Positions 37,761 through 62,387 of a stretch of DNA of 64,000 bases are shown here, piece by piece. The DNA lies in NCBI GenBank assembly GCA_030647125.1, contig JAUSKC010000013.1:2249-66248 (forward strand), written 5' to 3'. Numbering within the stretch: position 1 is the stretch's first letter; each line of letters opens with the position of its first letter. This DNA comes from Nanobdellota archaeon. GTDB lineage: Archaea > Nanobdellota > Nanobdellia > Pacearchaeales > GW2011-AR1. Under the pieces are notes generated by a model. That model was not told the origin of the DNA, searched no databases, and worked only from the letters and a program-made list of their open reading frames with translations. Both the position numbers and the translations under genes were made by a program.

Positions 37761-39548
37761 ATGATAACTCGTCAAGAATTAATAAAGAAATATATTGAAT
37801 TTTTTAAGCATAAAGGGCATAAGCACATCCCTTCTGCATCGCTTATTCCTGAAAATGACCCTACAGTTTTATTCACAACAGCAGGAATGCACCCTTTAGT
37901 TCCTTTTCTTTTAGGACAATCACATCCTTTGGGAAAACGCCTTGTATCAGTTCAAAAATGTATCAGAACAGGCGACATTGAAGAAGTAGGGGACAAAGTT
38001 CATCACACTTTTTTTGAAATGTTGGGCAACTGGTCTTTAGGGGATTATTTTAAAGAAGACGCAATAAAATTCTCTTTCGAGTTCCTGACAAAAGAACTAA
38101 AAATTCCTTTAGAAAAATTAGCAGTAACTTGCTTTGTTGGAGATAAAAACGCAGGAAAAGATATTGAGTCCTCAAAAATCTGGAAATCTCTAGGAATCAA
38201 AGATGAAAGAATTGCTTTCTTGCCTAAAGAAAAAAATTGGTGGGGTCCCGCTGGCTTAACAGGCCCGTGTGGTCCTGATACAGAAATGTTTTATTGGAAG
38301 TCCAAAACAAAAAAAGTTCCAAAGGTCTTCAATCCTGAAGATGAAAATTGGGTTGAAATTTGGAATGATGTTTTTATGCAATACAACAAAAACAAATCCG
38401 GAAAGTACGAGCCATTAAAACAAAAAAATGTTGATACTGGAATGGGAGTTGAAAGAACTTTAACAATCTTAAATGAATTGGAAGACAATTATCAAAGTTC
38501 AATCTTCAAACCAATAATTTCTGAAATTGAAAAGATATCAAAAAAGAAATACAAATCATCAGATTCTGACGACGATAAGTCAATGAGAATTGTAGCAGAC
38601 CATATTAGAACAGCAACATTTATACTTGGAGAAGAAAAACACCTAACGCCTTCTAACACCGACCAAGGTTACGTTTTAAGAAGATTAATCCGAAGAGCAA
38701 TCCGTTTTGGAAGACAACTTGGCATAAAAGAAAATTTCACTTCACAAATTTCAAAAATAATAGTTCATGAATATACAGACTATCCAGAATTAGCAAGAAA
38801 TCACAAGTCAATAACTTCCGCACTTGATGAAGAAGAATTGCGTTTCCTTGAAACGCTTGAAAAAGGCCTAAAAAAGTTTAACCAATTTGTAGAGGAATTC
38901 AAAAAAATAATTCCCGGAAAAGAAGCTTTCTTATTATTTCAGTCATACGGATTTCCAATTGAAATGACTCAAGAACTAGCCGATGAAAAAGGAATTGAAG
39001 TCGACTTGGAAGAATATAATGAAGAATTCAAGAAACATCAAGATCTATCACGAACAATGTCCGCCGGCCGTTTCAAATCCGGACTTGCTGACGATTCAGA
39101 GGCAACTAAAAAACTTCACACTGCAACACACTTGCTAAATGAAGCGCTAAGACAAGTTCTAAAAGATAACAACATAAAACAGCGCGGTTCTAACATAACT
39201 CCAGAACGTTTGCGTTTTGACTTTAACTTTTCAAGAAAATTAACAGATGACGAACTAAAAAAAGTTGAGCAATGGGTAAATGACAAAATAAAAAAATCTC
39301 TTCCAGTAACAAGAGAAGAAATTCCTTTGACACAAGCAATGGCATCAGGAGCACAATCAGAATTCGGCTCAAAATATCCTGAACTAGTGTCTGTTTACAC
39401 AATAGGAAATCCAAAATCATTTATTTCAAAAGAAATCTGCACAGGCCCCCACGTTTCAAACACTTCAGAAATTGGGAATTTCAGAATAATAAAAGAAGAA
39501 TCCAGCGCAGCTGGAATCCGTCGTATCAAAGCAGTTATAAGTAATTAA
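37761..39548 (+). CDS. alaS: alanyl-tRNA synthetase, short form (catalytic plus editing domains, no C-Ala domain)
   Basis: FTTAGMHPLVPF, QKCIRTGDIEEVGD..HHTFFEMLGNWS and editing-site HTATHLL. 595 aa. Confidence 0.9.
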   Translation: MITRQELIKKYIEFFKHKGHKHIPSASLIPENDPTVLFTTAGMHPLVPFLLGQSHPLGKRLVSVQKCIRTGDIEEVGDKVHHTFFEMLGNWSLGDYFKEDAIKFSFEFLTKELKIPLEKLAVTCFVGDKNAGKDIESSKIWKSLGIKDERIAFLPKEKNWWGPAGLTGPCGPDTEMFYWKSKTKKVPKVFNPEDENWVEIWNDVFMQYNKNKSGKYEPLKQKNVDTGMGVERTLTILNELEDNYQSSIFKPIISEIEKISKKKYKSSDSDDDKSMRIVADHIRTATFILGEEKHLTPSNTDQGYVLRRLIRRAIRFGRQLGIKENFTSQISKIIVHEYTDYPELARNHKSITSALDEEELRFLETLEKGLKKFNQFVEEFKKIIPGKEAFLLFQSYGFPIEMTQELADEKGIEVDLEEYNEEFKKHQDLSRTMSAGRFKSGLADDSEATKKLHTATHLLNEALRQVLKDNNIKQRGSNITPERLRFDFNFSRKLTDDELKKVEQWVNDKIKKSLPVTREEIPLTQAMASGAQSEFGSKYPELVSVYTIGNPKSFISKEICTGPHVSNTSEIGNFRIIKEESSAAGIRRIKAVISN

Positions 39549-40009: not shown

Positions 40010-43000
40010 TCATTCCAAATAAATCCCCGGCTTGCCCGGCTTAACTTTTTTGCTTTTTCCGTCCGGATCATATTTATCTTTATCATTAACAGCATAAACT
40101 TTTATATCAAGACCTGTTCGTTTTTTCAACTCATCAACGCTATCAACAAAATTCTTCTTTTCGTTAGGCAAAACATAAACCCAACATTTTGAAACTTCTT
40201 TTCCTTCCCGTTCTTTTATAATTTTAACAACGTGATTTATATCTTCAACAAGCTTTGCAACATCTTGCTCTTGCTTTTCCAAACTCTCATTAATCTTCGC
40301 TTCTTCAACTTTAGGCCATTCAGATGAAGAAATCAGACCAACACCTCCTATTTTCTCCCACATTTCTTCAGCTATGTGCGGGCAAAAAAGAGACAAAAGT
40401 TTCAAACCCTTTTCCAAAACTAATCTATCAGTTTCCAGAGGCAAAGAATTAAACAATTCCCTGACTTTTATAATTGCTAAGTTATATTTGAAATTTTCAA
40501 TCTGGTTCGTCATTTCTTTAATAATCTTATTCAATTTGCTTTCAATTTTAGCGTCTGATTTCTTAACAATCTTAACATTTTGAAAATAATCATAAACTTT
40601 ATTCAAGAATTTGAAGCTTCCAACAAGAACATTCTCATCCCAAAGAGTATCATTTTCAGGAGAAGCCAAACTCATTAAAGCCAAACGCAAAGAGTCCGCG
40701 CCATACTTCTTAATAATATCCAAAGGATTAATCACATTACCTAACGACTTTGACATCTTCTGCCCATCAGCGCCATGCAAAAGCCCTTGATTAAACAATT
40801 TAATAAACGGCTCATCAATTTCAGGAATCAAATCTAAATCCCTCAAGGCCTTTGTAAAAAAACGCGCGTAAATCAAATGCATCGTCGCATGTTCCGCGCC
40901 TCCAATATATTGATCAACAGGCATCCAGTATTTTACTTTATCAATTTCAAAAGGTTTTTTTGAATTTTCCGAGTCCAGATATCTCAAATAATACCAACTC
41001 GAATCAAAGAAAGTATCCATCGTGTCCGTCTCTCGTTTGGCTTTTCCATTACATGAAGGACATTTTACATTAATCCATTTTTCATTTGTTTTCAAAGGAT
41101 TTCCTTTTCCAAATTTAACTTTTTCAGGAAGAACAATAGGCAAGTCACTTTCTTTAATAGGAATAATTCCACACTTATCACAATAAACAACTGGAATAGG
41201 AGTTCCCCAATAACGCTGACGTGAAACCAACCAATCTCTTAATTTAAAATTAACAACCTTGCGTCCTAATTTTTTCTTTATTAAAAATTTAGTAATTTCT
41301 TCTTTAGCTTTTTCACTTTCCACTTCATCAAATTCATCCGAATTAATTAACCATCCTTCTCCAGTATAAGCTTTCGACTCTTTTGTAAAATCAATTTCTC
41401 CTTCCCTTGGCTGAATCACTGCCTTAATTTCAATATTGTATTTTCTTGCAAACAAATAATCCCTTTGGTCGTGAGCAGGCACAGCCATAACCATTCCACT
41501 CCCATAATCAGCGACGACAAAATTGCCGGCATAAACCGGAACTTTTTTATTATTTACAGGGTTTACAGCATAACTTCCTGTAAAGACACCTTCTTTGTCA
41601 AGTTCTTCAAGTTGTTTTTCAGAAACGCCTTTTAATTTTTTCAAGAATTTTTCTACTTCTTTCTTTTGTTTGTTAGAAACTAATTCCATAAGTCGCGGAT
41701 GCTGCGCTGAAACAACCATAAAAGTCACTCCGTAAATAGTATCTGGCCTTGTCGTAAATATAGACCACTTTTCATTTCCAATAATTTCATTTAAAAGTTC
41801 AGGAAATTCTCCTGTTCCCATATCATATATAGTATAATGCCCATGATTTTTTAATTCAATAATTTCGCCGCCCAAAGAATCATGAAAGATCTTAACGCTT
41901 TTCTTACCATCGGCTTCCTCATTATTTGCAGTAAAAATAATTACTTCACCAACTCTATCTTTAATTCCCAAGTCAATATTATAATCATAAAAATCTTTTG
42001 GAGCATTACCAGATTTAGCAATTTTCCAAGGTGCGACTAAAATTAGTTTTTTAATTTTCTTTTTAGTATCACCAAGCCATCTTACTAAAAATGCACAGCC
42101 GCAACTATGTCCAATTAAAACAGAATTCTCATCTATTTTATTTTTTTCGAATTCTTTCTTCCAATTATAATAATCAGCTTTCCAGGCCTCGGGCATTAAA
42201 GGAGAAAAAACCTTAATCTTTCTTTCCTCAAGTTTCTTTTTAATCCAAGGAATCCAATGTTTATCATAAGTTCTTTTTTCTTGAGAATACTCCGCTTTTT
42301 CAGCAGACGGACAACCATGAACAATCACAACATTAGAAAGTTTATTTGAATTTTCAATCTCAAACAAAATCTCCGTCCCTTCCGAACGTCCAATCCAATT
42401 CTTCTGCATCAACTTAATTCTTTCAGGCCAATATAACTTGTCAACCTTATCCAAAAGCTCGTCAGCATAATTTGTCGTTTTGATAAACCATTGTTCAAGT
42501 TGCTTGATTTCAACAGGTGTTTCAGGATGTCTCCAGCAACAACCACCATGAACTTGCTCATTCGCTAAAACCGTCTCACATTTACCACACCAATTAACCG
42601 GCGACTTTTTTCTATAAATTAAACCTTTTTCATAAAGTTTAAGAAAAAAATATTGATTCCATTTATAATATTCCGGCTTTGACGTCACAATCATTTTACT
42701 CCAATCGTAACTCAATCCTAACTTATGCTGTTGATTTACAAAATTTTTTATAGAATTTTCAGTGTACTTTCTAGGATGTTCCCCTGCTTTTATCGCCGCA
42801 TTTTCAGCAGGCAATCCAAAAGCATCGTAACCCATTGGATAAAGAACATTCATCCCTTGCATTCTCTTGAAGCGCGCATAAATATCCCCTATAGTATAAT
42901 TCAAAGCATGGCCCATATGCAGTCCAGCTGCCGATGGATACGGAAACATTTCAAGAACATAAAACTTCTTTTTCTTTTTCGTGCCTGCGGCGTCCGGGGA

Positions 43001-43072
43001 TACTTCAAAGACCTTCTTTTTTTCCCACTTACTCTGCCATTTTGTTTCTATCTTTTTAAAATCATAAACCAT
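40010..43072 (-). CDS. leuS: leucyl-tRNA synthetase, bacterial-type, with a nested alpha/beta-hydrolase domain
   Basis: HMGH (aa 52-55), WIGRSEG (aa 226-232), TTRPDT (aa 440-445), MAVPAHDQRD and KMSKS. 1020 aa. Confidence 0.9.
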   Translation of the reverse strand: MVYDFKKIETKWQSKWEKKKVFEVSPDAAGTKKKKKFYVLEMFPYPSAAGLHMGHALNYTIGDIYARFKRMQGMNVLYPMGYDAFGLPAENAAIKAGEHPRKYTENSIKNFVNQQHKLGLSYDWSKMIVTSKPEYYKWNQYFFLKLYEKGLIYRKKSPVNWCGKCETVLANEQVHGGCCWRHPETPVEIKQLEQWFIKTTNYADELLDKVDKLYWPERIKLMQKNWIGRSEGTEILFEIENSNKLSNVVIVHGCPSAEKAEYSQEKRTYDKHWIPWIKKKLEERKIKVFSPLMPEAWKADYYNWKKEFEKNKIDENSVLIGHSCGCAFLVRWLGDTKKKIKKLILVAPWKIAKSGNAPKDFYDYNIDLGIKDRVGEVIIFTANNEEADGKKSVKIFHDSLGGEIIELKNHGHYTIYDMGTGEFPELLNEIIGNEKWSIFTTRPDTIYGVTFMVVSAQHPRLMELVSNKQKKEVEKFLKKLKGVSEKQLEELDKEGVFTGSYAVNPVNNKKVPVYAGNFVVADYGSGMVMAVPAHDQRDYLFARKYNIEIKAVIQPREGEIDFTKESKAYTGEGWLINSDEFDEVESEKAKEEITKFLIKKKLGRKVVNFKLRDWLVSRQRYWGTPIPVVYCDKCGIIPIKESDLPIVLPEKVKFGKGNPLKTNEKWINVKCPSCNGKAKRETDTMDTFFDSSWYYLRYLDSENSKKPFEIDKVKYWMPVDQYIGGAEHATMHLIYARFFTKALRDLDLIPEIDEPFIKLFNQGLLHGADGQKMSKSLGNVINPLDIIKKYGADSLRLALMSLASPENDTLWDENVLVGSFKFLNKVYDYFQNVKIVKKSDAKIESKLNKIIKEMTNQIENFKYNLAIIKVRELFNSLPLETDRLVLEKGLKLLSLFCPHIAEEMWEKIGGVGLISSSEWPKVEEAKINESLEKQEQDVAKLVEDINHVVKIIKEREGKEVSKCWVYVLPNEKKNFVDSVDELKKRTGLDIKVYAVNDKDKYDPDGKSKKVKPGKPGIYLE
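41768..42340 (-). other. RBBP9/YdeN-type serine hydrolase domain inserted in LeuRS (aa ~245-435)
   Basis: VVIVHG..HWIPWIKKKL..VLIGHSCGC (GxSxG, Ser codon 42104-42106)..LILVAPW..NHGHY, colinear with B. subtilis YdeN as I recall it. Confidence 0.7.
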
Positions 43073-46483: not shown

Positions 46484-48370
46484 TTAAACCAATTTCCCAG
46501 AATCTTCAAACTCCTTTTCTCCATCAATTAACTGTCTTAACACATTTTTCAAATCTTTTATCTTTACTCTTATTTGTTTTGTAGTATCACGCTCGCGAAT
46601 AGTAACATCTTGTTGTTTTGTTGAATCCTCGTCGATAGTTATGCAATATGGAGTCCCAGCCTCATCATTTCGAGCGTATCTCCTTCCAATGCTACCACTT
46701 TTATCATAAATAACATTCCACTCTTTTCTCAAATCTTCCAAGATTTCGCGGCAAATATCTTCATATTCATCTTTTTTTATTATAGGAAATATTGCGGCCT
46801 TAACTGGTGCCAACCTTGGATTTAATTTTAAAATAACATTCTGCCTTTTCTCGTCGGGAGAATAAGCGCTAAACATAAAAACCAAAAACGCCCTTTCAAA
46901 TCCCAATGATGGTTCACATACTACTTGAGGCAAAATCTTCTTACCGGTTTTCTCGTCCAGAATGTGTAAATCCTTTCCAGAGAATTTTTCATGTTGAGAC
47001 AAATCAAAATTCCCCCTATCTGCAAAGCCTAAAAGTTCTTTCCACCCGAAAGGAAATTCATATTCTAAATCCCATGTGTCTTGAGAATAATGCGCTTTCT
47101 CTTCCGAAACATGCTGCCTTATTCTGAATTTATCTTTATTTGCGCCAAGAGAAATAAACCACAAATATTCATTTGCTATCCAATAAGCATGCCATTTGTT
47201 TTTTATAACATGTGATTCAAGCGCCTCTTTTAATTTCATTTTCCTCGCGTCCTCATTCCCCTTTTGCATCTCCGAAGAATAAATCATAATTTCCACATCA
47301 GGAATTTTATAAGGGCATTCATCTTCAGGATTTACAAAATACTCAATTTCCATTTGTTCAAATTCCCTACATCTAAATAAAAAATCTCTCGGGGCAATTT
47401 CATTTCTAAAAGCCTTTCCTTGCTGCGCAATTCCACACGGAAGTTTCAATCGTGCATTGTCAAAAACAAGTTTGAAATCAGCAAATATCAACTGCGCAGT
47501 TTCCGGCCTCAAATATGCCTTTACAGAATCTTCAACAACAGGGCCAACTTGCGTCGTGAACATCGGATTAAATTCTCCTTTAATTTCATAATTAGAATTA
47601 TTTTCATATTTCTTCACTTCGTATTTATCAACTTTAAACTTCTCCTTTGTTTTTTTATTTACAACTGCGACATCAACAAAACTTGCAACATGCCCACTCG
47701 CTTCCCAAACTTTCGGGTTCGTCACAATCGCTCCGTCAATTCCCACAATATCATCCCGTTGATAAACATGATATTTCCACCATTCATTTTTCAAGTTCTT
47801 TTTCATTTCAGCCCCAAGAACTCCAAAATCCCAAAATCCAGACAGACCCCCATAAATCTCCCCAGAAGGATAAACAAATCCTTTTCTTTTACAAAATGCA
47901 GCCATTTCATCAACTGATATTTCAGAACTATTTTTTACCTTGTTATTTCCTATAAGATTATTTCTTGGTTTATAATTTATAAGAAATTCCTTACCTAAAT
48001 CTGTAAGAAAGTAACCACCATCTCTATTATCTTTTTTAATATAATTTTTATCAGCCAACTTATTTAATATTAAACTAACTTCAGATTTATCGAGAGATAA
48101 TTCTTTACCAATAAATTCTGGATAACCTATATGATCATCACACATATAAACTATCTTATATGCAATTTCCTCATCGATTATAATATCTTTATCTTCTATT
48201 TTTGTTTTCTTGTTAACCATATTTTCAAATTTCCGTTTGGCTTCTTCCTTGTTTTTGCCCAGGTACGCGACGTTTTTAGATTTAACTTTTTCCCCTTCTC
48301 TTACTGACTCGCGCATATAATAATATTCCCCGCCGTTGATTTTCTTCCGGACTATGTAAGCCATAAACAA
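46484..48370 (-). CDS. glyS: glycyl-tRNA synthetase (alpha2 type) with an approximately 150-aa N-terminal extension
   Basis: The core starts at SVDEMAAFCKRKGFVYPSGEIYGGLSGFWDFG, with class II motifs downstream. The extension contains YYYMRESVREGEKVKSKNVAYLG and a wHTH-like segment. Confidence 0.9.
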   Translation of the reverse strand: MFMAYIVRKKINGGEYYYMRESVREGEKVKSKNVAYLGKNKEEAKRKFENMVNKKTKIEDKDIIIDEEIAYKIVYMCDDHIGYPEFIGKELSLDKSEVSLILNKLADKNYIKKDNRDGGYFLTDLGKEFLINYKPRNNLIGNNKVKNSSEISVDEMAAFCKRKGFVYPSGEIYGGLSGFWDFGVLGAEMKKNLKNEWWKYHVYQRDDIVGIDGAIVTNPKVWEASGHVASFVDVAVVNKKTKEKFKVDKYEVKKYENNSNYEIKGEFNPMFTTQVGPVVEDSVKAYLRPETAQLIFADFKLVFDNARLKLPCGIAQQGKAFRNEIAPRDFLFRCREFEQMEIEYFVNPEDECPYKIPDVEIMIYSSEMQKGNEDARKMKLKEALESHVIKNKWHAYWIANEYLWFISLGANKDKFRIRQHVSEEKAHYSQDTWDLEYEFPFGWKELLGFADRGNFDLSQHEKFSGKDLHILDEKTGKKILPQVVCEPSLGFERAFLVFMFSAYSPDEKRQNVILKLNPRLAPVKAAIFPIIKKDEYEDICREILEDLRKEWNVIYDKSGSIGRRYARNDEAGTPYCITIDEDSTKQQDVTIRERDTTKQIRVKIKDLKNVLRQLIDGEKEFEDSGKLV

Positions 48371-54390: not shown

Positions 54391-57300
54391 CTAAACTATT
54401 TGGGTAACCGAATTCGTTGCACTAGAACTATACTCATTATAATACTTAATAACATTAGGGACATGAGTACTTTTTGCACGGATTAACTTTTCTTCCTTAA
54501 CCTTCCCATTTAAATTTTGTACACATTGATCATAATTAATAAAAGTTCCACCAACTTTACAATTACTAACAACAACAGAAGGACCGACATTGTAAGCTAA
54601 AGCCAAAATTCTTGGATTAGTTATTTGATAATTACTCCTTAAACAAGAAACATAACAAGTTCCAACTAAAATATTTCTCCTGTTAGCAATTCCATTAATA
54701 TCAGTCGTACTAGCAAATTGTGAAAGCAATTGCGCTCTGCTCGTAGACAAAGTAGAATAACCTATATTACTCAAATCAGCCGAACATGAAGGAACACAAA
54801 TCCCATCGATAGAATGAGTATTAAGATTAACAAAATCACTTAACATGCCATCTTCTTTTGCAGGAGTCAACTGCATTAAACCGATATCAGGAGTGCTTGC
54901 TGGATTCCAATCACTCTCTTGTGTTATTAAGGCCCTCACAAAATTTGCATTAACATTATATTTACCAGTTACTTCAATAACATAACTTGTCAAAGCGCTT
55001 TCAACATCACTATTGCTCGTAGAAATACGAACATTCTGACTATCAGAACTTAAAACATCATAATTTAAATTAATGCTATCAAAACTTGAAGTAGTTGCAG
55101 TTACTCCTCCACTAGTTCCTGTTTCAGTCGTCGTTCCGCTCGTCTGCGAATTAACAATCATATCAACAACTCCAAGCAAATCAGAATTTGTAACACTTGA
55201 ACTAAAAGTATTAGAAGTAACAGGAATATCTTTCAAATTCTCCCCATCATCAACTTTCCAGACCCCATCATAATAAAAATGATAACTTGTTGAACCGGAA
55301 GTCGCGCTAAAATAAAAGTCCCCTATGCCCAAACTTTGCGAACTTACAATTATATTTGCAATAGATTGTTTATTTTCATTAGTTAAACCAACAAAAGGAT
55401 CAGAAAATGTTCCACTTCCCGTAGTCGACACACCGCCGCCAACTTGATTTGTACTTAGTATGGTCTGTTGTGAAATAGCTTTATTATTTTCATCCTCAAA
55501 ATCCTGCGTCGCCAAAATTCCATAAGCTACTGCTCTCAAGAACAATATCTGTACCTTATTTGTATCCAACAACGATTGAGAAATTAAATTCTCAGTAATG
55601 TAACTTATTTTTTCAGCCGGACTCATTGCATTAATTTTATTCAATTCCATGTTTATATCAAATGAACTCGTCTGACCCAAAGCATTTATAACACTCGAAG
55701 ATAAACCTTGCAATGTATCGTTCTCAATTCCTATTCCTTTAATTGCTTGCTTAACGCTTTGCGTATCAATATAACAATTTAATCCTGCCGTCCCGCAACT
55801 TCCAACTTGAACCCAACGAGCATTTGCCCCTCCATCCAAAGGATCAGTTCCTTTTCCTGGGCTTGAAGTAGAACACACACGAACAATTCCTTGATTGTAC
55901 AATTGCGGATTCAAAACTTGATTCGCGCCTTCTTGAACATTTGGCTGAACTAAACTATAAACACTCGGCGTTCCTGAAACACACTCTTGTTCAGTTTTTA
56001 CTGTCTGCGTCGCTTGCTCTTTCAAATACTGATCATTCAAATAATTCAAAGCAAATGAAGTTGTAACTTTTTGGAAGCCGCAATCATCTTTTCCGTTGAC
56101 AGAAATACACATCTGTTGATATCCTGTCGGAGCAAGAATATCTTTTGTTTCTGATGCCGAGCCGCCACGTTTAATATAACCAGAATCAACAACTAAAAGT
56201 TGATTTGTCTGGTAATAAGAGCTTCCAACTGGCGCCTTCAAGTAAACTTGGAAATAAGCACCTTGATCATTTCCAGAATAAATATGATAAAAGACCTTAT
56301 ACTGCGAAGTTGAAGGCACTGTAGCCGTTGTGTAAGGAATTTCGCTGAACCATCCTTGATATTGATTTGGTGAATCAGGAGCAAGCAAGTTATCTAAGAA
56401 TTTTCCACTATTAGGGTAATTTGCCGACGCGAACGCCTTACAAACTGTGCTTCCAACTTCATTTGTCGACCTAGCTTGGAACGCCTTATACGATTGAGCT
56501 CCATAATAATTAACCATATAATCAATTGAATTCTGCGCATTTGTCCAAGCACTTTGAATTCCTAAATATTCTCCACCGCCATGCGACGTCTTTCCTGAAA
56601 CAACTTCCAAAAGTTTCGGAACTAAAAGATTTGCAACTGGAATTGATTGTCTCCACAAAAATTCACACATATAAATACTATTAATCTCGTCACAAATTCC
56701 AACAGTTCTCCCAGTATCTAAATTATCTTGCAAACACATTTGATAATCTTTCATTACAGAAATTAAATCATCAACTCCTGCTTTAACTCCAGTTAAACAA
56801 ATAGGAACTTTAACTTCCGGGAAATTAGGCAAGCAAAGAGCGACACTTCCTATAATTCCGGATTGAATAACATTATCAACATGGTACGAACCACCTAAAT
56901 CACATCTTGAAGATGGACAAATTACCGGGTCGCAAACATTAAATAATAAATTACAATTTGCAGGACTCATGAAATCAGTGCATTCAATATCCGGAACATT
57001 TGTAGCTGGATTTCCAACTTTAATTGTCTGTCCGTTAATAACAACTTGAGTTACTCCTGCCTTGTATTGTCTGCTAGCTTGAGTAATTGCATTTATCGCT
57101 TGCCTTACTAAACTTTGAGTTTGCCCTTCAGTAAGCCCTGGGAAAGATCCGTAAATCGCTCCAGTTCCAGGATTAAATTCTGTGCAAGTGTCATCGCCAA
57201 ATCCTGAATCAGCTTGTGCTCTCCCATTAGCACCAACATTACAAAGCAAGAAACTTGCAGGAGCTCCTGATTGATCATACGTCGCTGTAGCTCCTCCAAC

Positions 57301-60300
57301 ACCAGCAATGTTAGCCAAAGCGCCAGGCAAAGTCTGTTTAGTATAAGTATACCACCCATTGCTCAAATCAAATGGAACTTGTGCAGGCATTCCTTTGTAA
57401 GGTGCTGTTTCAAAATACTTTACTTGTGCATCAATAAATTTATTATTATAACTTGAACTATCATACTTTACAAAAACAGGATATCTTGATTTCACAAGCT
57501 TAGTATTTTCATCGCTTGCAGCTCCGCCAGCTAAATCATAAACATTATCTGGAACATAATTTCCATTCCCAGCATCCTTCAAACTGACAATATATTCTCC
57601 ACTACTTACAATGGCTCCTGCAACAGGCGTTCCAGAAATTATTCCATAACTATTCGCTCCTGCAACTGCTCCATTATAAACTCCTGGCTTCAAATCTTTA
57701 TCCACAAAAACATTAAAGTTAAGTCCGTTTATTCCTTTGCCCGCAGCTTCACTTACACTATTTGTTATCTTTGTATATGTCTCGCTTCGTGTCTGAATTG
57801 TTTTTAACGTCGAATACAAATTCGCTTTGGCAATTTGTTCTAATTCAGGACTAGGATTGTTTGCCAAAACCGCATTCCACGTCGATATATCTCGAGCTTC
57901 GCTTAACTGAACTTGCCCATCACTATACCCTTTTTGTGTAAAAACACTTTTTACTTCGGCAACATCAATATTATTATTTTGATTATTAGGATCTGTAATA
58001 ACTGCAGGCAAACCACTTGCAATTTGTTGTAATTGTGTTCCTGCATTGCTGTCAGTTACAGGATTTTTACTATACTCTGTAATAATTTGGCTTAATTTAT
58101 CAACATCAGTATTTATCTCGTCATTATTTTCAAGCAGACACGTGCTTACACTAGAATATTTTTTCTGGCTGAATAATTGTTGACATTTAGAATTCCATCC
58201 TCCAGGCCCAGTCATCACGTTTTGTCTAGCAATTGCTTTTCCTCCAGTATTGCTTATGAAATTTGAAACTGTCAAGAAAGCCCCCGTCGTCAAACACGCT
58301 GCCTTAAACCCTGTAACAACTGTTCCAAGATTCTTAGAAATTCCTTCCCATTTGGCAATGCTTTGATTCAAATTATTAATTTTAGATTGAATCTGATCCG
58401 GCGCAAGTTGAATTGCCCGCTTTTCAATTCCAAGTTTAAAACTAAAATTCGCTTGTGAATTAACATTATTTATTTCAGGAATTAAAGATACCTTTGCAAC
58501 TTTATGCAGATTAATTCCTGTTAAAATAATTGTTTTATCCCCAACAGCAACGGCTTTGTTCTTTTGAAGAATAAGATTCTGATTAGACGCAAATCCTGCT
58601 TTATCATCTTTTATAGTTGAAACAGCCTTAACACTTACAGTCGCCGTATTATCATCTAAATTAACTAACTGAATAAATTCGCCGCTGGAAGAATCTTCAT
58701 GCTTTTGTTCCTTTCCAAGTTGCACACTTTCACTCCCAAACAATATATTCGCGCTGTAATCATTCGGCGACGGCTCAACAACATCATTTAATCCAATTGT
58801 CGTAGCAACTCCATTAATCAATAATGTTTTTGAACTTGCTGCCCCATTTGACAAAGCTAAAGTGTCTCCGCACTGATTTTGAACTTGAACTAATAAAGGC
58901 GATGTTGAATAAAGTTGCACGAAACGTCCGCAAAGTTCAGTTGCTTTAGAATATTCATGAACTCCAAATGCAAGTTTTATTGCAGCAAACAAAGAACTCT
59001 CTCCATAAGTTACTCCTCCATTATTTACACTTCCATAAGAACTGACTATTCTATTATAATCACTCAATGCCTTAAAAAAATTGCTTCCTTGCTTATTGCT
59101 GAAATCAAATTTATTAACTCCAGTAGAATATCCCACAACTTTTAAATCACTTCCAAAAACACTCGTCGATAATTTAATCTTTGGATCAACTGTCTGCGCC
59201 GCTCCAAAAGGAACAACTTCTCCTCCCAATATACTAAAAGAAGAAATATCTCCTGCTCTAAATTTAGAATTAATTGTATTTGTAATTGTGCTTAAAGTTG
59301 AGGCCTCTAAATTTGAATTTGTTGTCTCATAAAGATAAACATACAAATCACCTGTGTTCATAGAATCAAGATTTGGTTTTCCACTAGCATCCTTTGAATA
59401 AGAACCAGTATAAACTAAATATGCATTCTGGCCATTTATAGAATGAACTAACTCGCCAACATTCTTCACAATAGGATTGCCCCCTACATCAAGTTTCACC
59501 GACGGACTTGTTATCAAATCAAAACTCTGACTTCCACTATCAGTTGTACATCTTACACTTACTCTCTTATTCAACCCTTGTTTTAGGACATTATAGGCCT
59601 GGCATCTATTTTCTGCAAAACTTTGTCCTTCTGACAAATCAAATACATTTCCATTGATTTCTACTTTTGCAATTGTGCCCGGATTTTGTATATCATCTAA
59701 ATGAACTCTCATATAAGCATTACAATAAAATCCTGGAATTGCAATCTGGCCAGAACTTGCTCCCTTTTGCAAAGTCACACTATAAGTTCTTTGTGTCTTA
59801 TCAGCATAAACAGAAATTGTCGCGTCGTTATTTGTAACATCATTCACTCTCAAATATCCTCTCCCATTCCAAAATCCATACCCAACAAAATTATTATTCC
59901 AATCACTTTCACTTAAAACCGGAAGAACGTATTGTGATTGACCTATGCCAAACGCTTTTTGAATATCATAACGAATCGTCGCTGTCAAGTTTCCTTCGAC
60001 AAAATCTGGCATTGCAGATTCATTTTGTTGTTGTTTCAAAACAATAACTGCATAACCAACATTGCTCAAAACAGGAGAATTTAATAAAGTCCCGCTTGAA
60101 TACGACAAAGCAGCCCTTGCAGGATAAAATCCTATTCCTGAAATAGCAGCCGGCCTTTGTGTTCCTGAAGAAAAACCAATATCCATATGCTCAATTGCCT
60201 TAACGTCAATTAATGGATTTATTTTAGTTGCAACTATCGGACAAAAAACAGGAACATTTTCTTCTTCTAGCAAATCGCTTCTTACCACCATTGGTGTACA

Positions 60301-60510
60301 TCCAAGTGGAGCAATCTGCAAAATAAAATCAGCCCCATTAGCATCACACCTTATATTTGAATACTGCCCGACATTTAATCCTTGAGAATTCAAATAATTA
60401 AAAGCATCCGGCTGAGAATACTGAACATAAGAGCTTGTATAACCAGAAACAAAATTAAATAATAAAATCCCATATAAAAAAATTGTTAAAAAGATAAATT
60501 TTTTATTCAT
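54391..60510 (-). CDS. giant secreted Cys-rich protein (2039 aa) with C-terminal lytic transglycosylase (SLT) domain
   Basis: Sec-type signal MNKKFIFLTIFLYGILLFNFVSG. Uninterrupted 6.1-kb ORF. The C-terminus carries ITQESDW (Glu codon 54916-54918), IGLMQL and LALAYNVGP, which are SLT motifs I-III. Confidence 0.85.
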   Translation of the reverse strand: MNKKFIFLTIFLYGILLFNFVSGYTSSYVQYSQPDAFNYLNSQGLNVGQYSNIRCDANGADFILQIAPLGCTPMVVRSDLLEEENVPVFCPIVATKINPLIDVKAIEHMDIGFSSGTQRPAAISGIGFYPARAALSYSSGTLLNSPVLSNVGYAVIVLKQQQNESAMPDFVEGNLTATIRYDIQKAFGIGQSQYVLPVLSESDWNNNFVGYGFWNGRGYLRVNDVTNNDATISVYADKTQRTYSVTLQKGASSGQIAIPGFYCNAYMRVHLDDIQNPGTIAKVEINGNVFDLSEGQSFAENRCQAYNVLKQGLNKRVSVRCTTDSGSQSFDLITSPSVKLDVGGNPIVKNVGELVHSINGQNAYLVYTGSYSKDASGKPNLDSMNTGDLYVYLYETTNSNLEASTLSTITNTINSKFRAGDISSFSILGGEVVPFGAAQTVDPKIKLSTSVFGSDLKVVGYSTGVNKFDFSNKQGSNFFKALSDYNRIVSSYGSVNNGGVTYGESSLFAAIKLAFGVHEYSKATELCGRFVQLYSTSPLLVQVQNQCGDTLALSNGAASSKTLLINGVATTIGLNDVVEPSPNDYSANILFGSESVQLGKEQKHEDSSSGEFIQLVNLDDNTATVSVKAVSTIKDDKAGFASNQNLILQKNKAVAVGDKTIILTGINLHKVAKVSLIPEINNVNSQANFSFKLGIEKRAIQLAPDQIQSKINNLNQSIAKWEGISKNLGTVVTGFKAACLTTGAFLTVSNFISNTGGKAIARQNVMTGPGGWNSKCQQLFSQKKYSSVSTCLLENNDEINTDVDKLSQIITEYSKNPVTDSNAGTQLQQIASGLPAVITDPNNQNNNIDVAEVKSVFTQKGYSDGQVQLSEARDISTWNAVLANNPSPELEQIAKANLYSTLKTIQTRSETYTKITNSVSEAAGKGINGLNFNVFVDKDLKPGVYNGAVAGANSYGIISGTPVAGAIVSSGEYIVSLKDAGNGNYVPDNVYDLAGGAASDENTKLVKSRYPVFVKYDSSSYNNKFIDAQVKYFETAPYKGMPAQVPFDLSNGWYTYTKQTLPGALANIAGVGGATATYDQSGAPASFLLCNVGANGRAQADSGFGDDTCTEFNPGTGAIYGSFPGLTEGQTQSLVRQAINAITQASRQYKAGVTQVVINGQTIKVGNPATNVPDIECTDFMSPANCNLLFNVCDPVICPSSRCDLGGSYHVDNVIQSGIIGSVALCLPNFPEVKVPICLTGVKAGVDDLISVMKDYQMCLQDNLDTGRTVGICDEINSIYMCEFLWRQSIPVANLLVPKLLEVVSGKTSHGGGEYLGIQSAWTNAQNSIDYMVNYYGAQSYKAFQARSTNEVGSTVCKAFASANYPNSGKFLDNLLAPDSPNQYQGWFSEIPYTTATVPSTSQYKVFYHIYSGNDQGAYFQVYLKAPVGSSYYQTNQLLVVDSGYIKRGGSASETKDILAPTGYQQMCISVNGKDDCGFQKVTTSFALNYLNDQYLKEQATQTVKTEQECVSGTPSVYSLVQPNVQEGANQVLNPQLYNQGIVRVCSTSSPGKGTDPLDGGANARWVQVGSCGTAGLNCYIDTQSVKQAIKGIGIENDTLQGLSSSVINALGQTSSFDINMELNKINAMSPAEKISYITENLISQSLLDTNKVQILFLRAVAYGILATQDFEDENNKAISQQTILSTNQVGGGVSTTGSGTFSDPFVGLTNENKQSIANIIVSSQSLGIGDFYFSATSGSTSYHFYYDGVWKVDDGENLKDIPVTSNTFSSSVTNSDLLGVVDMIVNSQTSGTTTETGTSGGVTATTSSFDSINLNYDVLSSDSQNVRISTSNSDVESALTSYVIEVTGKYNVNANFVRALITQESDWNPASTPDIGLMQLTPAKEDGMLSDFVNLNTHSIDGICVPSCSADLSNIGYSTLSTSRAQLLSQFASTTDINGIANRRNILVGTCYVSCLRSNYQITNPRILALAYNVGPSVVVSNCKVGGTFINYDQCVQNLNGKVKEEKLIRAKSTHVPNVIKYYNEYSSSATNSVTQIV

Positions 60511-62387
60511 TGAAACTCAACCCCCAATCCATTGTTATCATATAAAATATAATTTTCTTGTAACCGCTCAATGCTATTTGGTACAGGAAGTGAACTTGCA
60601 CTTATAACAATTTTATCTGAGTCCTGCAATTCAGATTGTGAAACGTAATAATCTTGCTTTCCTCCTCCAGATAAAACATTCGTTAAACTTTGCTCCGGAT
60701 AATTGATATCAAAACATTTTTCTTGTGTAAATCCAAACAAGCCTCCAACTCCCGACGCTGGAACATCAACACACTGCTGCTGCGTGCTTTCAGGAATAGA
60801 CATGCTTGAATTTTGATAAATAACCACTTGAATATTATACTGCCCTTCACTCAACTCAACACTGTTCTGTCTAGGGAAAACTGCAGTCACTGCACTTCCA
60901 TTTTCTTTATTGAAAGAAATAATTGCATCTCCTCCATAATCCTTTCCATCAACTTTTAATTCCAAATTCTTGCTATACAACTTGCTTAAAACAATATCAA
61001 CTTGGCCTGATTGTGCCTGCGTTACCACATACGTTCCATCTTCATAACCATCGGTCTGCGCAACAACTTTTCCATTAACACATTGAGGAATCTTTCCGTC
61101 CAAATGCCCCCCTTTTGTCTGTCCTATATCACATTGAGTTCCAAAACATTCGAACGAAACATTTGCATCAACCTTATTCAAATTGCTATCATAAACATTT
61201 ACTCCAACATTTGAGTTTGCATACTCGCACAACGAAGTGTCCGTCCCTACTGCTACCGCCCCTACTAAAGATTTCCGAGGATGATTTCCTTGAATTACAA
61301 CTGCAATAGGAAACTGGAAAATAGCGCCGGTAGGATCGTCATAAATCTGAACTAAGACAGGATATTTAACATCATAAACAAAATGGTACGGAACATAACA
61401 AAAGCCCAAAGCCCCCAAACCTTGTTGATTTCCAACCGGATCCGCTTGAAGAACATTCCCATTAGAAGGACTAACTTCGTAAACATGAGGCCAATTCTTA
61501 GACGTTAAGAATTTAACATTTGTATTCGTTCCCAAATCCTCAACAAAATACTGATCTTTCTTACTATTCAAACTATAATCTCCTCCCTTAACTTTAATTG
61601 CTACAATGTTCGCATCAAGTCCGTTTCCTAAATTTTCTAAGACGTCCTCTGCAATCCATGTTTTAGGTGCGCACTGAATTTCAACTCCATCTACCGGAGC
61701 ATAAAGTCTCAAAATATCCAAAGTTCTATTTTCTAAAAATAAATATTTCTGCTCATTGTTATAGACCTTTAATGCATCCGAATACATACTTCCAATGTTT
61801 GAATTAATTGAAATTTTATGGTTTCTTACAAGAACACTTTCATTCCCTTTTCTAATCACTAAATCCATTACCATATCAATTTGAACTTTGCTATCAGAAA
61901 TACTAACATCCGCTTTGGGCTTAGACATATTAATAACCAAACCATCACTATAAAATTCAGAAAAATCACAACTTCTAGCTCGTGCTTCAATAAATTTTGA
62001 TAAATCATTTTCCATACTTGTCATTGAAGGAACTTGTTGTTTCTCAACTCCATTACCTGAAACGTAATACCAATAAGGAATAGGGTTGCCAAGAAAATCC
62101 AACTGCGATGAAAAAGGCGAGAAGCGTGAGCCCGGATAAAATTGAGGCATATAAATATAACCGCCTTGACTTCCAAGAACATTAATTCCTGTCTTCAAAT
62201 CATTTTGCAAACAATTTTGGAAATTAGTGTAGGCAGGTTGCAAATCAGAAGGAATATTGTTGTTACTTACATCAGCAAAAAAAACAAAATACGCTATTAC
62301 GCCAGCAACAATAACTATTCCAAGAATAATAAATATTGTCGCCTGCGCCCTGTTATTTCTAGCAAAATCTCTCCCCTTTTCGAACAT
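60507..62387 (-). CDS. 626-aa surface protein with class III (type IV pilin-like) signal peptide
   Basis: The N-terminus ...ARNNRAQATIFIILGIVIVAGVIAYFVFF fits the [KR][GA]|Q + hydrophobic pattern. The remainder is beta-rich and Cys-containing. ATGA overlap with the giant gene. Confidence 0.75.
   Translation of the reverse strand: MFEKGRDFARNNRAQATIFIILGIVIVAGVIAYFVFFADVSNNNIPSDLQPAYTNFQNCLQNDLKTGINVLGSQGGYIYMPQFYPGSRFSPFSSQLDFLGNPIPYWYYVSGNGVEKQQVPSMTSMENDLSKFIEARARSCDFSEFYSDGLVINMSKPKADVSISDSKVQIDMVMDLVIRKGNESVLVRNHKISINSNIGSMYSDALKVYNNEQKYLFLENRTLDILRLYAPVDGVEIQCAPKTWIAEDVLENLGNGLDANIVAIKVKGGDYSLNSKKDQYFVEDLGTNTNVKFLTSKNWPHVYEVSPSNGNVLQADPVGNQQGLGALGFCYVPYHFVYDVKYPVLVQIYDDPTGAIFQFPIAVVIQGNHPRKSLVGAVAVGTDTSLCEYANSNVGVNVYDSNLNKVDANVSFECFGTQCDIGQTKGGHLDGKIPQCVNGKVVAQTDGYEDGTYVVTQAQSGQVDIVLSKLYSKNLELKVDGKDYGGDAIISFNKENGSAVTAVFPRQNSVELSEGQYNIQVVIYQNSSMSIPESTQQQCVDVPASGVGGLFGFTQEKCFDINYPEQSLTNVLSGGGKQDYYVSQSELQDSDKIVISASSLPVPNSIERLQENYILYDNNGLGVEFQ

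What the first reader, a model, noticed from the sequence alone, without database searches (positions are those of the whole stretch)
41768..42340. Complete serine-hydrolase domain (RBBP9/YdeN type) nested inside leucyl-tRNA synthetase at the CP1 editing-domain junction
In bacterial-type LeuRS only a couple of dozen residues separate WIGRSEG from the TTRPDT strand that opens the CP1 editing domain. Here about 190 residues intervene (aa ~245-435) with no stop or frameshift at either junction. They read as a full small alpha/beta hydrolase colinear with YdeN/RBBP9 proteins:
- VVIVHG...HWIPWIKKKLEERKIKV (compare IIHG...HWFPWLKKRL)
- the nucleophile elbow G-H-S-C-G (Ser323, nt 42104-42106)
- LILVAPW
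- a C-terminal NHGHY histidine

The acidic triad member is not obvious: NNEEADG lies where YdeN has DD. Placing an esterase-type active site next to the hydrolytic editing site of an aaRS suggests an extra proofreading or deacylation activity, or a moonlighting function. I know of no described LeuRS with this architecture.
Basis: partly seen in the sequence, partly recalled or inferred. Interest (0 to 1): 0.85.

Follow-up and report, generated by a model that had tools for sequence, protein, structure and literature searches.

The report
Serine hydrolase nested inside leucyl-tRNA synthetase
A complete, apparently active RBBP9/YdeN-type serine hydrolase sits in frame inside the editing domain of an archaeal (DPANN) leucyl-tRNA synthetase; this is one case of a widespread but patchy architecture for which I found no published description, and its function is untested.

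Summary
ORF 40010-43072 (-) is a 1020-aa bacterial-type LeuRS. About 192 extra residues (aa 241-432) sit in the turn of the first CP1 beta-hairpin, 5-8 residues before TTRPDT. The insert passes Pfam Ser_hydrolase (53 bits, cut-off 22), models as an independent alpha/beta domain (pLDDT 85), and matches RBBP9 and YdeN structures (TM 0.77-0.83). The "missing" acid is Glu385, so the triad is Ser323-Glu385-His412 and is kept in about 97-99% of nested copies. The LeuRS catalytic and editing motifs are intact.

It is not a one-off or an assembly artefact. 88 of the 120 nearest LeuRS clusters (Nano-, Woese- and Pacearchaeota) carry this hydrolase at the same site. A second CP1 loop carries NUDIX, the hydrolase or unknown domains. 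The closest relative (89% nt identity, syntenic) lacks exactly 576 nt.

Free-standing copies (57-70% identical) lie directly beside leuS in five species, two genes from an archaeal-type leuS, and downstream of an IleRS. A ValRS carries nested copies. But the domain is also nested in UvrB, Der and a glycosyltransferase.

The best reading is an auxiliary aminoacyl-(thio)ester hydrolase coupled to class Ia synthetases. A passenger in a permissive loop remains a serious rival. I found no publication describing this architecture.

The parts
40010..43072 (-). leuS ORF, 1020 aa, bacterial-type leucyl-tRNA synthetase carrying the nested domain
   Evidence: ORF; TIGR00396, 905 bits; 722 bits to T. thermophilus LeuRS 1h3n; identical protein P0121 from an NCBI Nanoarchaeota MAG
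42908..42919 (-). HMGH (HIGH) signature, aa 52-55
   Evidence: translation; H52, G54 and H55 invariant in 85 LeuRS
42353..42388 (-). First strand of the CP1 entry hairpin, aa 229-240 ([12 protein letters not shown])
   Evidence: AF2 full-length model has strand 229-240; aligns to Tt LeuRS up to residue 239
42332..42352 (-). N-side linker, aa 241-247 (NSNKLSN)
   Evidence: variable in length among nested copies
41780..42331 (-). Nested RBBP9/YdeN-type serine hydrolase domain, aa 248-431. It corresponds to a whole free-standing ORF minus its start and stop codons.
   Evidence: PF06821, 53 bits; 58-70% identity to the best-scoring free-standing proteins; AF2 pLDDT 85, pTM 0.85; Foldseek TM 0.77-0.83 to RBBP9 (7oex, 2qs9, 9fcr) and YdeN (1uxo)
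42314..42319 (-). His252-Gly253, the HG motif after strand 1 (the usual oxyanion-hole position in alpha/beta hydrolases)
   Evidence: H and G invariant in 114 family members
42104..42106 (-). Ser323 codon, nucleophile in G-H-S-C-G
   Evidence: aligns to RBBP9 Ser75; conserved in 89/91 nested and 120/120 free copies
41918..41920 (-). Glu385 codon, catalytic acid
   Evidence: aligns to RBBP9 Asp138; E in 120/120 free copies, D or E in 88/91 nested copies
41837..41839 (-). His412 codon, catalytic histidine (NHGHY)
   Evidence: aligns to RBBP9 His165; conserved in 90/91 nested and 120/120 free copies
41768..41779 (-). C-side linker, aa 432-435 (GNEK); its last residues correspond to the original hairpin turn
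   Evidence: the spacing FPELL to TTRPDT is 12 aa in 44 of 59 nested LeuRS
41282..41767 (-). Remainder of the CP1 editing domain, aa 436-597, with the T-rich peptide TTRPDT (aa 440-445, nt 41738-41755) and the editing Asp535 (nt 41468-41470)
   Evidence: PF13603 at aa 433-597; T440, T441, R442, D444, T445 and D535 invariant in 85 LeuRS with or without the insert
40745..40759 (-). KMSKS signature, aa 772-776
   Evidence: M773, S774, K775 and S776 invariant

Best explanation
Shown: the window encodes a functional-looking bacterial-type LeuRS of a DPANN archaeon (Nanoarchaeota MAG). A whole small serine hydrolase of the RBBP9/YdeN family (PF06821) is nested in frame in the turn of the first CP1 beta-hairpin. 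It models as its own alpha/beta domain on short tethers and keeps a Ser323-Glu385-His412 triad. The aminoacylation motifs (HMGH, KMSKS) and the CP1 editing motifs (TTRPDT, Asp535) are untouched. It is one example of a widespread but patchy architecture in Nano-, Woese- and Pacearchaeota LeuRS. The same hydrolase subfamily also occurs as a gene abutting leuS or ileS, and nested in a second CP1 loop and in a ValRS.

Inferred: the domain is an active acyl hydrolase working on alpha-aminoacyl esters, thioesters or amides. It adds an auxiliary quality-control or 'house-cleaning' activity to class Ia synthetases rather than replacing CP1 editing. Candidate substrates are mis-acylated tRNA-Leu presented at CP1, or reactive aminoacyl by-products of editing such as homocysteine thiolactone or released non-cognate aminoacyl esters or adenylates. 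Nesting or operon coupling keeps it stoichiometric with, and next to, the enzyme that produces the substrate.
For: Structure and activity:
- Pfam hit above cut-off.
- Independent fold in both the isolated and the full-length models.
- Foldseek TM 0.77-0.83 to RBBP9 and YdeN.
- Triad aligned residue by residue to RBBP9 S75/D138/H165 and conserved in about 97-99% of 91 nested copies, which argues for continued selection for catalysis.
- LeuRS motifs invariant whether or not the insert is present.

Not an artefact:
- 88 of 120 nearest LeuRS clusters, from JGI, ENA, NCBI and Logan assemblies, carry the hydrolase at the same site.
- Uninterrupted ORFs in species-representative genomes L011, L012, L014, L016 and L049.

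Coupling to class Ia synthetases:
- The free-standing hydrolase gene overlaps or abuts leuS on the same strand in L017, L021, L022, L070 (downstream) and L049 (upstream).
- It lies two genes from an archaeal-type leuS in L041 and 16 nt downstream of an IleRS in L062.
- It is nested in ValRS P0300.
- 6 of 72 free-standing loci have a leuS within the flank, against about 0.6 expected by my rough estimate (8 genes per flank, 1000 genes per genome).
- Among multidomain hosts in the best 150 cluster representatives, 10 are class I synthetases (nine LeuRS or LeuRS-like fragments and one ValRS) against 3 other nested hosts.

Chemistry of the family:
- RBBP9 forms acyl-enzymes with Leu/Ile, Met, Phe, Tyr and Trp and requires a free alpha-amine (PMC8866121).
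- RBBP9 activates valacyclovir, an L-valyl ester of a nucleoside analogue (Shenoy 2020, cited in PMC7730578).
- The other valacyclovirase, BPHL (also a serine hydrolase), is an efficient homocysteine thiolactonase (PMC4198189).

Partner domains NUDIX and Ham1 are classic house-cleaning enzymes. They occur both fused to this hydrolase and nested in LeuRS.
Against: - No activity or substrate has been tested.
- The same hydrolase is nested in UvrB (P0288), Der/EngA (P0314) and a GT2 glycosyltransferase (P0245).
- Free-standing copies also sit between RtcB and Archease, between ABC transporter genes, or alone. Association with synthetases is therefore enriched but not obligatory.
- The RBBP9 residue that binds the alpha-amine (Glu108) has no conserved counterpart; that loop is variable.
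- The closest relative does without the insert, so it is dispensable for LeuRS function.
- I could not obtain model coordinates, so whether Ser323 faces the CP1 pocket or the tRNA path is unknown.
- Enrichment statistics are inflated by shared ancestry of some loci.
Confidence: 0.5

Rival explanations
1. Passenger in a permissive loop. The hydrolase does a general housekeeping job unrelated to LeuRS (generic esterase or aminopeptidase). It is nested only because the surface loops of CP1 tolerate compact domains whose two ends lie close together, and because small DPANN/CPR genomes favour piggy-backing on an essential, constitutively expressed gene.
For: - The same domain is nested in UvrB, Der/EngA and a GT2 glycosyltransferase.
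- The same two LeuRS loops also hold NUDIX, Ham1, tandem hydrolases and several unknown 100-130-aa domains.
- A CPR IleRS holds a nested histidine phosphatase.
- Free copies occur in unrelated gene contexts.
- Nested and free copies are equally conserved (58-70% identity), suggesting one function regardless of context.
- The nearest relative lacks the insert.
Against: - Repeated tight adjacency of the free gene to leuS (both the bacterial and the archaeal type) and to ileS is hard to explain by loop permissiveness.
- Class I synthetases dominate among nested hosts.
- The C-side tether length is almost fixed, at 12 aa in 44 of 59.
Confidence: 0.33
2. Selfish or laterally spreading cassette. The hydrolase ORF persists and spreads by recombination between leuS alleles. 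Sitting inside an essential gene protects it from loss, because only a precise deletion is viable, much as for inteins.
For: - Presence or absence at site A needs 13-19 changes on bootstrapped LeuRS core trees, and site B needs 16-18.
- Free and nested copies interleave in the hydrolase tree, with 7-19 switches.
- Insert and core distances are uncorrelated (Spearman -0.04).
- An 89%-identical syntenic leuS lacks exactly 576 nt.
- A free copy and a nested copy in adjacent genes of L049 are only 41% identical, implying separate acquisitions.
Against: - No terminal inverted repeats, target duplications or junction-spanning complementarity.
- No nuclease, Hint or transposase domain.
- No compositional anomaly: GC3 is 0.20, which is within the range of the gene and of the window.
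- The catalytic triad is under clear conservation, so the domain is useful to the cell.
- The trees are neighbour-joining only, and the core phylogeny is nearly star-like.
- This reading is compatible with, not exclusive of, the two functional readings.
Confidence: 0.12
3. Artefact or removable element: an assembly chimera, an intein, or an RNA (bulge-helix-bulge) intron that is spliced out, so that the mature LeuRS lacks the domain.
For: Only one assembly holds this exact protein, and it is not in the contig index. The tRNA-splicing endonuclease gene lies next to leuS. Some free copies sit between RtcB and Archease.
Against: - Dozens of independent assemblies give the same in-frame architecture.
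- The frame is kept at both junctions in all 88 site-A carriers, which an intron would not need.
- The insert is colinear end to end with a free-standing enzyme, and there is no Hint domain hit.
- The N-side junction reads SN|VV, without the Cys/Ser/Thr that starts an intein.
- No complementarity between the junctions.
Confidence: 0.02

Closest known systems
RBBP9 / YdeN serine hydrolases (Pfam PF06821; PDB 2qs9, 7oex, 9fcr, 1uxo)
   Same: Same fold (TM 0.77-0.83) and size (about 190 aa). Same order of catalytic elements: HG, G-H-S-x-G, an acid after strand 7, and a C-terminal G-H.
   Different: Only about 20% identical. The acid is Glu, not Asp. It has a family-specific conserved segment, HGCPS...E...RTYDKHW, that models with low confidence. 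Cysteines flank the nucleophile. The RBBP9 alpha-amine ligand Glu108 is not conserved. Here the domain is nested in another enzyme.
ProRS INS editing domain and its free-standing relatives YbaK/ProXp (my own knowledge of the family)
   Same: A hydrolytic module that occurs inserted in a synthetase in some lineages and as a separate gene in others.
   Different: No sequence or fold relationship. INS/YbaK are proven aminoacyl-tRNA deacylases, whereas nothing is proven here. This hydrolase also occurs nested in non-synthetase hosts.
Canonical bacterial LeuRS with CP1 editing domain (T. thermophilus 1h3n, E. coli 4aq7)
   Same: Full-length homology (722 and 617 bits). HIGH, KMSKS, the T-rich peptide and the editing Asp are all present.
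   Different: 192 extra residues in the first CP1 hairpin turn. The region of Tt residues 577-626 (leucine-specific domain) is not matched. The host is an archaeon.
BPHL (valacyclovirase / homocysteine thiolactonase)
   Same: A serine hydrolase acting on alpha-amino-acid esters and thioesters. It is an analogy for the proposed chemistry.
   Different: No detected homology beyond the general hydrolase class. The substrate link is an inference only.
NCBIfam NF040702, 'isoleucine--tRNA ligase, N-acetyltransferase domain-containing'
   Same: A class Ia synthetase carrying an extra small-molecule-modifying enzyme domain. It appears only as a weak partial hit.
   Different: A different synthetase and a different added domain. 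I did not examine it.

Membership tests
Bacterial-type leucyl-tRNA synthetase (TIGR00396) | Whole-protein HMM score above the curated cut-off | tested here: met
   905 bits against a cut-off of 548, in two stretches split by the insert
Bacterial-type leucyl-tRNA synthetase (TIGR00396) | Class I signatures HIGH and KMSKS | tested here: met
   HMGH at aa 52-55 and KMSKS at aa 772-776
Bacterial-type leucyl-tRNA synthetase (TIGR00396) | CP1 editing site: T-rich peptide and conserved Asp | tested here: met
   TTRPDT at aa 440-445 and AHD with Asp535, invariant in 85 relatives
Bacterial-type leucyl-tRNA synthetase (TIGR00396) | Leucylation and editing activity | not testable with these tools
   Requires biochemistry
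Ser_hydrolase PF06821 (RBBP9/YdeN) | HMM score above the gathering threshold | tested here: met
   53 bits for the insert alone and 48.6 bits in context, against a cut-off of 22
Ser_hydrolase PF06821 (RBBP9/YdeN) | Small flavodoxin-like alpha/beta hydrolase fold | tested here: met
   AF2 pLDDT 85; Foldseek top hits are RBBP9 and YdeN, TM 0.77-0.83, E about 1e-10
Ser_hydrolase PF06821 (RBBP9/YdeN) | Ser-acid-His triad at the canonical positions | tested here: met
   Ser323, Glu385 and His412 align to RBBP9 S75, D138 and H165. The acid is Glu instead of Asp.
Ser_hydrolase PF06821 (RBBP9/YdeN) | Hydrolase activity | not testable with these tools
   Fluorophosphonate labelling and substrate assays are needed
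RBBP9-type aminopeptidase specificity | Residues that hold the free alpha-amine (Glu108, Tyr99, Ser76 in RBBP9) | tested here: inconclusive
   Tyr99 corresponds to the invariant Trp349. Ser76 corresponds to Cys324. The Glu108 position falls in a variable loop with no conserved acid in nested copies.
Known aminoacyl-tRNA trans-editing families (YbaK/INS, AlaX, DTD) | Sequence homology to one of these families | tested here: not met
   The Pfam scan of the insert lists only alpha/beta hydrolase families and DUF3530
Intein | Hint domain, nucleophile at the N-junction, His-Asn plus Cys/Ser/Thr at the C-junction | tested here: not met
   No Hint hit. The N-side junction reads SN|VV and the downstream extein begins with W. 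The insert is colinear with a free enzyme.
Transposon-like or intron-like insertion | Terminal inverted or direct repeats, or helix-forming complementarity between the junctions | tested here: not met
   No repeat pair at the junctions
Anti-phage defence or phage protein families | Match to PADLOC or PHROGs models | tested here: not met
   No PADLOC hit. Two free-standing relatives (not the window insert) give only a weak generic esterase PHROG hit, E about 1e-3.

The most novel reading that the evidence does not exclude
Class Ia synthetases (LeuRS, IleRS, ValRS) of DPANN archaea and CPR bacteria carry an unrecognised, modular set of auxiliary hydrolases: this serine hydrolase, NUDIX, Ham1 and a histidine phosphatase. 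These are nested in or next to the CP1 editing domain, or encoded in the same operon. Together they would act as an extra quality-control layer. The serine hydrolase would deacylate mis-charged tRNA, or destroy reactive aminoacyl by-products of editing such as homocysteine thiolactone, at the site where they arise.
Probability: 0.25. Interest if true: 0.9.

Novelty: new variant of a known kind. Interest (0 to 1): 0.7.

Why it matters
Synthetase fidelity is thought to rest on the synthetic site, the CP1-type editing site and a few known free-standing deacylases. A catalytically intact serine hydrolase wired into CP1 would be a candidate new fidelity or damage-control module, and one in organisms with minimal genomes, where every retained domain is informative. 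The wiring recurs: the hydrolase is nested in, or encoded next to, LeuRS, IleRS and ValRS. Even if it is only a passenger, the finding has value. It identifies two CP1 surface loops that accept whole enzymes (hydrolase, NUDIX, Ham1, unknown folds). It also identifies a small enzyme that nests in several essential proteins. Both are useful for protein engineering and for understanding how domain insertions arise. The hypothesis can be tested directly with one recombinant protein and three mutants.

Tried and rejected
- Assembly chimera: rejected. Many independent assemblies show the same in-frame architecture. The exact window protein has only one source, and the contig index does not hold it, so no read-level check was possible.
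- Intein, transposon or BHB-intron: no Hint domain, no splice-junction residues, no terminal repeats and no junction complementarity.
- Compositional sign of recent foreign origin: GC3 is 0.20 in the insert against 0.31 in the rest of the gene. But equally low 195-codon windows occur elsewhere in leuS, and 13% of windows in other ORFs are as low, so this is not informative.
- Defence-system or phage origin: no PADLOC hit and only a weak generic PHROG hit.
- A single conserved gene neighbourhood for the free-standing hydrolase: not found. The largest neighbour cluster is class I synthetases (10 of 72 loci). RtcB/Archease occurs in 4 closely related loci and NUDIX in 4. Most neighbours are singletons.
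- Orientation of the hydrolase active site relative to the CP1 pocket: not obtainable, because the structure tool returns no coordinates.
- Literature: six searches for the architecture found nothing (one search was a syntax error).
- Oddity of the tools: the first protein search with the insert alone listed no LeuRS, not even the identical P0121. The nested copies appeared only when the whole LeuRS was the query.
- Recent duplication from an adjacent gene as the origin of nesting: the adjacent free copy and the nested copy in L049 are only 41% identical.
Full report
**What is in the window.** The finding lies in a single ORF on the minus strand, 40010-43072, of 1020 aa.
- It scores 905 bits against the bacterial-type LeuRS model TIGR00396 (cut-off 548) and 722 bits against T. 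thermophilus LeuRS.
- Pfam splits it into the class I catalytic domain (aa 11-227), a Ser_hydrolase PF06821 match (aa 270-426; 48.6 bits in context, 53 bits alone, cut-off 22), and the LeuRS editing domain, which resumes at aa 433 at profile position 20.
- An identical protein is in NCBI from a Nanoarchaeota MAG contig of 85 kb (P0121).
- The neighbours fit a DPANN archaeon of about 33% GC: an archaeal tRNA-splicing endonuclease, TFIIE-alpha, AlaRS and eight tRNAs.

**Exact position.** Insert-less relatives have 17 residues between WIGRS and TTRPDT, for example [28 protein letters not shown]. The window has 209.
- Window aa 4-242 align to T. thermophilus residues 5-239, and aa 437-765 to residues 244-577.
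- The full-length AlphaFold2 model (pLDDT 88.2, pTM 0.77) has strands 229-240 and 434-440 flanking the extra domain.
- So the domain sits in the turn of the first CP1 hairpin, 5-8 residues upstream of the threonine-rich peptide. From my own knowledge of LeuRS structures, that peptide lines the editing pocket.
- By strand geometry the anchor point is roughly 20-25 A from that pocket. This is an inference, because the tool returns no coordinates.

**Is it a real hydrolase?** Yes, as far as sequence and modelling can say.
- The insert alone models with pLDDT 85 and pTM 0.85. Its best structural matches are RBBP9 (7oex, 2qs9, 9fcr; TM 0.78-0.83) and B. subtilis YdeN (1uxo; TM 0.77-0.79).
- A profile of 114 family members aligns to RBBP9 so that Ser323 = Ser75, Glu385 = Asp138, His412 = His165 and Trp349 = Tyr99.
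It is invariant in 120 free-standing homologues and is Asp or Glu in 88 of 91 nested copies.
- The Ser is kept in 89 of 91 nested copies and the His in 90 of 91.
- The LeuRS side is equally intact. HMGH, KMSKS, TTRPDT and the editing Asp535 are invariant in 85 LeuRS with or without the insert.
- The hydrolase therefore does not replace a decayed editing site.

**It is a widespread, patchy architecture.** Of the 120 LeuRS clusters most similar to the window protein, 89 carry a large insert at this hairpin (site A).
- 88 of the 89 inserts are this hydrolase. One of them is a tandem pair (P0185). The remaining insert is a Ham1 domain (P0209).
- 31 clusters have nothing at site A.
- A second hot spot (site B) is the loop between the AHD motif and AYTxxGxLxNS. 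In 19 clusters it carries NUDIX, the same hydrolase (P0148, P0157) or 100-130-aa domains with no Pfam match.
- Named sources are Nanoarchaeota, Woesearchaeota and Pacearchaeota MAGs. One CPR-like bacterial LeuRS has the hydrolase at site B (L052).
- The closest relative, P0122, is 90% identical in protein and 88.7% in DNA. It was assembled three times from groundwater and is syntenic with the window. It lacks exactly 576 nt.
- On bootstrapped neighbour-joining trees of the LeuRS core, presence or absence needs 13-19 changes at site A and 16-18 at site B.
- Insert and core distances are uncorrelated among 89 nested proteins (Spearman -0.04). The core tree is nearly star-like, however, so this is weak evidence.
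- The junctions carry no terminal repeats or complementarity, and composition is unremarkable.

**The same hydrolase as a separate gene.** The insert is 58-70% identical to free-standing proteins of about 190 aa in Patescibacteria (CPR) and DPANN genomes.
- The nested segment corresponds to the complete free ORF minus its start and stop codons.
- Nested and free copies interleave in a neighbour-joining tree, with 7-19 state changes over bootstraps.
- In species-representative genomes, the free gene overlaps or abuts leuS on the same strand in L017, L021, L022 and L070 (downstream; ATGA or TAAAATG junctions) and in L049 (upstream).
- In L049 the leuS also has a nested copy, only 41% identical to the free copy next to it.
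- In L041 the free gene lies two genes from an archaeal-type leuS. In L062 it follows an IleRS by 16 nt.
- P0300 is a ValRS fragment with two nested copies.
- Six of 72 free-standing loci have a leuS within about 4 kb. Chance would give about 0.6 on my rough assumption of 8 genes per flank and 1000 genes per genome. Some of these loci share ancestry.
- Other contexts exist. The gene sits between RtcB and Archease (L004-L007), next to or fused with NUDIX, fused with Ham1 or YdjC, between two ABC-transporter genes, or alone.
- The domain is also nested in UvrB (P0288), between the two GTPase domains of Der/EngA (P0314), and in a GT2 glycosyltransferase (P0245).

**Mechanism.**
- Shown: a complete, conserved catalytic apparatus on an independently modelled domain; short tethers, with the C-side spacing fixed at 12 residues in 44 of 59 nested LeuRS; an intact LeuRS; and statistical linkage of this hydrolase subfamily with LeuRS, IleRS and ValRS.
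- Inferred: the substrate class.
  - The only well-characterised family member, RBBP9, forms acyl-enzymes with Leu/Ile, Met and aromatic amino acids and needs a free alpha-amine (PMC8866121).
  - RBBP9 also activates valacyclovir, a valyl ester of a nucleoside analogue (reference 5 in PMC7730578).
  - The other valacyclovirase, BPHL, is an efficient homocysteine thiolactonase (PMC4198189).
  - From my own knowledge (Jakubowski's work), MetRS, LeuRS and IleRS generate homocysteine thiolactone when they edit homocysteine.
- I therefore favour an auxiliary aminoacyl-(thio)ester hydrolase that works beside CP1, either on mis-acylated tRNA-Leu or on reactive aminoacyl by-products. NUDIX and Ham1 would be fellow house-cleaning modules.
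- I put this at about 0.5.
- The main rival (about 0.33) is that CP1 loops are simply permissive and the hydrolase is a passenger with an unrelated job. This is what the UvrB, Der and GT2 hosts suggest.
- Lateral, recombination-driven spread explains the patchiness and can coexist with either reading.

**Comparison with what is known, and novelty.**
- The host is a member of bacterial-type LeuRS, and the insert is a member of PF06821. All defining features I could test were met, with Glu replacing Asp.
- It is not related to the known trans-editing families, to inteins, or to transposon-like insertions.
- The closest analogy in distribution is the ProRS INS domain and its free YbaK/ProXp relatives. 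That is a resemblance in pattern only.
- Searches of the held literature found no description of a LeuRS with a nested serine hydrolase, NUDIX or Ham1 domain. NCBI names the window protein only 'class I tRNA ligase family protein'.
- I rate it a new variant of a known kind, with interest 0.7. The architecture is real, common in a major archaeal radiation, surprising for synthetase specialists and directly testable. Its function remains inferred.

Noticed in passing
L062:341-3976 (+), CPR Candidatus Yanofskybacteria: An IleRS of 1211 aa (TIGR00392, 855 bits) carries a nested dPGM-like histidine-phosphatase domain at aa 516-681. The free-standing serine hydrolase gene follows 16 nt downstream. 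This is another class Ia synthetase with a nested hydrolase of a different fold.
   Followed up: partly
P0288, P0314, P0245 (database proteins, no locus): The same hydrolase domain is nested in UvrB (between aa 407 and about 600), between the two GTPase domains of Der/EngA, and inside a GT2 glycosyltransferase. It seems unusually prone to nesting in essential proteins.
   Followed up: partly
LeuRS site B (equivalent to window aa ~553-572, nt ~41357-41416); proteins P0140, P0214, P0147, P0216, P0125, P0166: A second CP1 loop carries inserts of 100-130 aa with no Pfam match in several DPANN LeuRS, besides NUDIX (P0127, P0138, P0151, L070) and the hydrolase (P0148, P0157, L052). The window itself has no insert there.
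   Followed up: partly
P0209 and P0185 (LeuRS relatives): At the same hairpin as in the window, P0209 carries a Ham1/ITPase-like domain instead of the hydrolase. P0185 carries two hydrolase domains in tandem.
   Followed up: partly
L004:3695-6983 and L006:3686-6980: The free-standing hydrolase is wedged between RtcB and Archease with overlapping start and stop codons. In L004 a LAGLIDADG gene precedes RtcB. In L006 a nucleotidyltransferase gene overlaps the start of the hydrolase gene.
   Followed up: no
L084 (332-aa ORF), L026 and L027 (427- and 418-aa ORFs): The hydrolase is fused behind an N-terminal region that I read, by eye only, as containing an R-x4-H (HEPN-like) motif (L084). In L026 and L027 it follows what looks, again by eye, like a signal/Pro-rich/transmembrane/coiled-coil region. 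These ORF starts are my own calls and may be over-extended.
   Followed up: no
window 41780-42331 (-), aa 254-271, and Cys254, Cys324, Cys326: The segment CPS...E...RTYDKHW is nearly invariant in the free-standing family yet models with pLDDT below 50-60, so it may be a lid or a substrate loop. Three conserved cysteines flank the oxyanion-hole motif and the nucleophile in free copies, but nested copies often have Ser, Ala or Gly there.
   Followed up: no
window 40010-43072 (-), C-terminus; L041:1105-3819: The bacterial-type LeuRS ends with ...VNDKDKYDPDGKSKKVKPGKPGIYLE. An archaeal-type LeuRS in a Woesearchaeota genome (L041) ends with almost the same tail. The window LeuRS also lacks a match to T. 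thermophilus residues 577-626, the leucine-specific domain.
   Followed up: no
window 54391-60510 (-) and 60507-62387 (-): A 2039-aa ORF has only a weak SLT transglycosylase match near its C-terminus. It overlaps a 626-aa ORF with no Pfam match.
   Followed up: no
window 37761-39548 (+) and 46484-48370 (-): The AlaRS is short (595 aa) and ends with the tRNA_SAD domain match (aa 543-589). A 628-aa class II synthetase has a good anticodon-domain match but only a weak core match.
   Followed up: no
search behaviour: The word-indexed protein search with the insert alone returned no LeuRS. It missed even the 100% identical P0121. The nested copies surfaced only with the full-length query. This looks like a tool property rather than biology, but it means nested domains can be missed by domain-only queries.
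   Followed up: no
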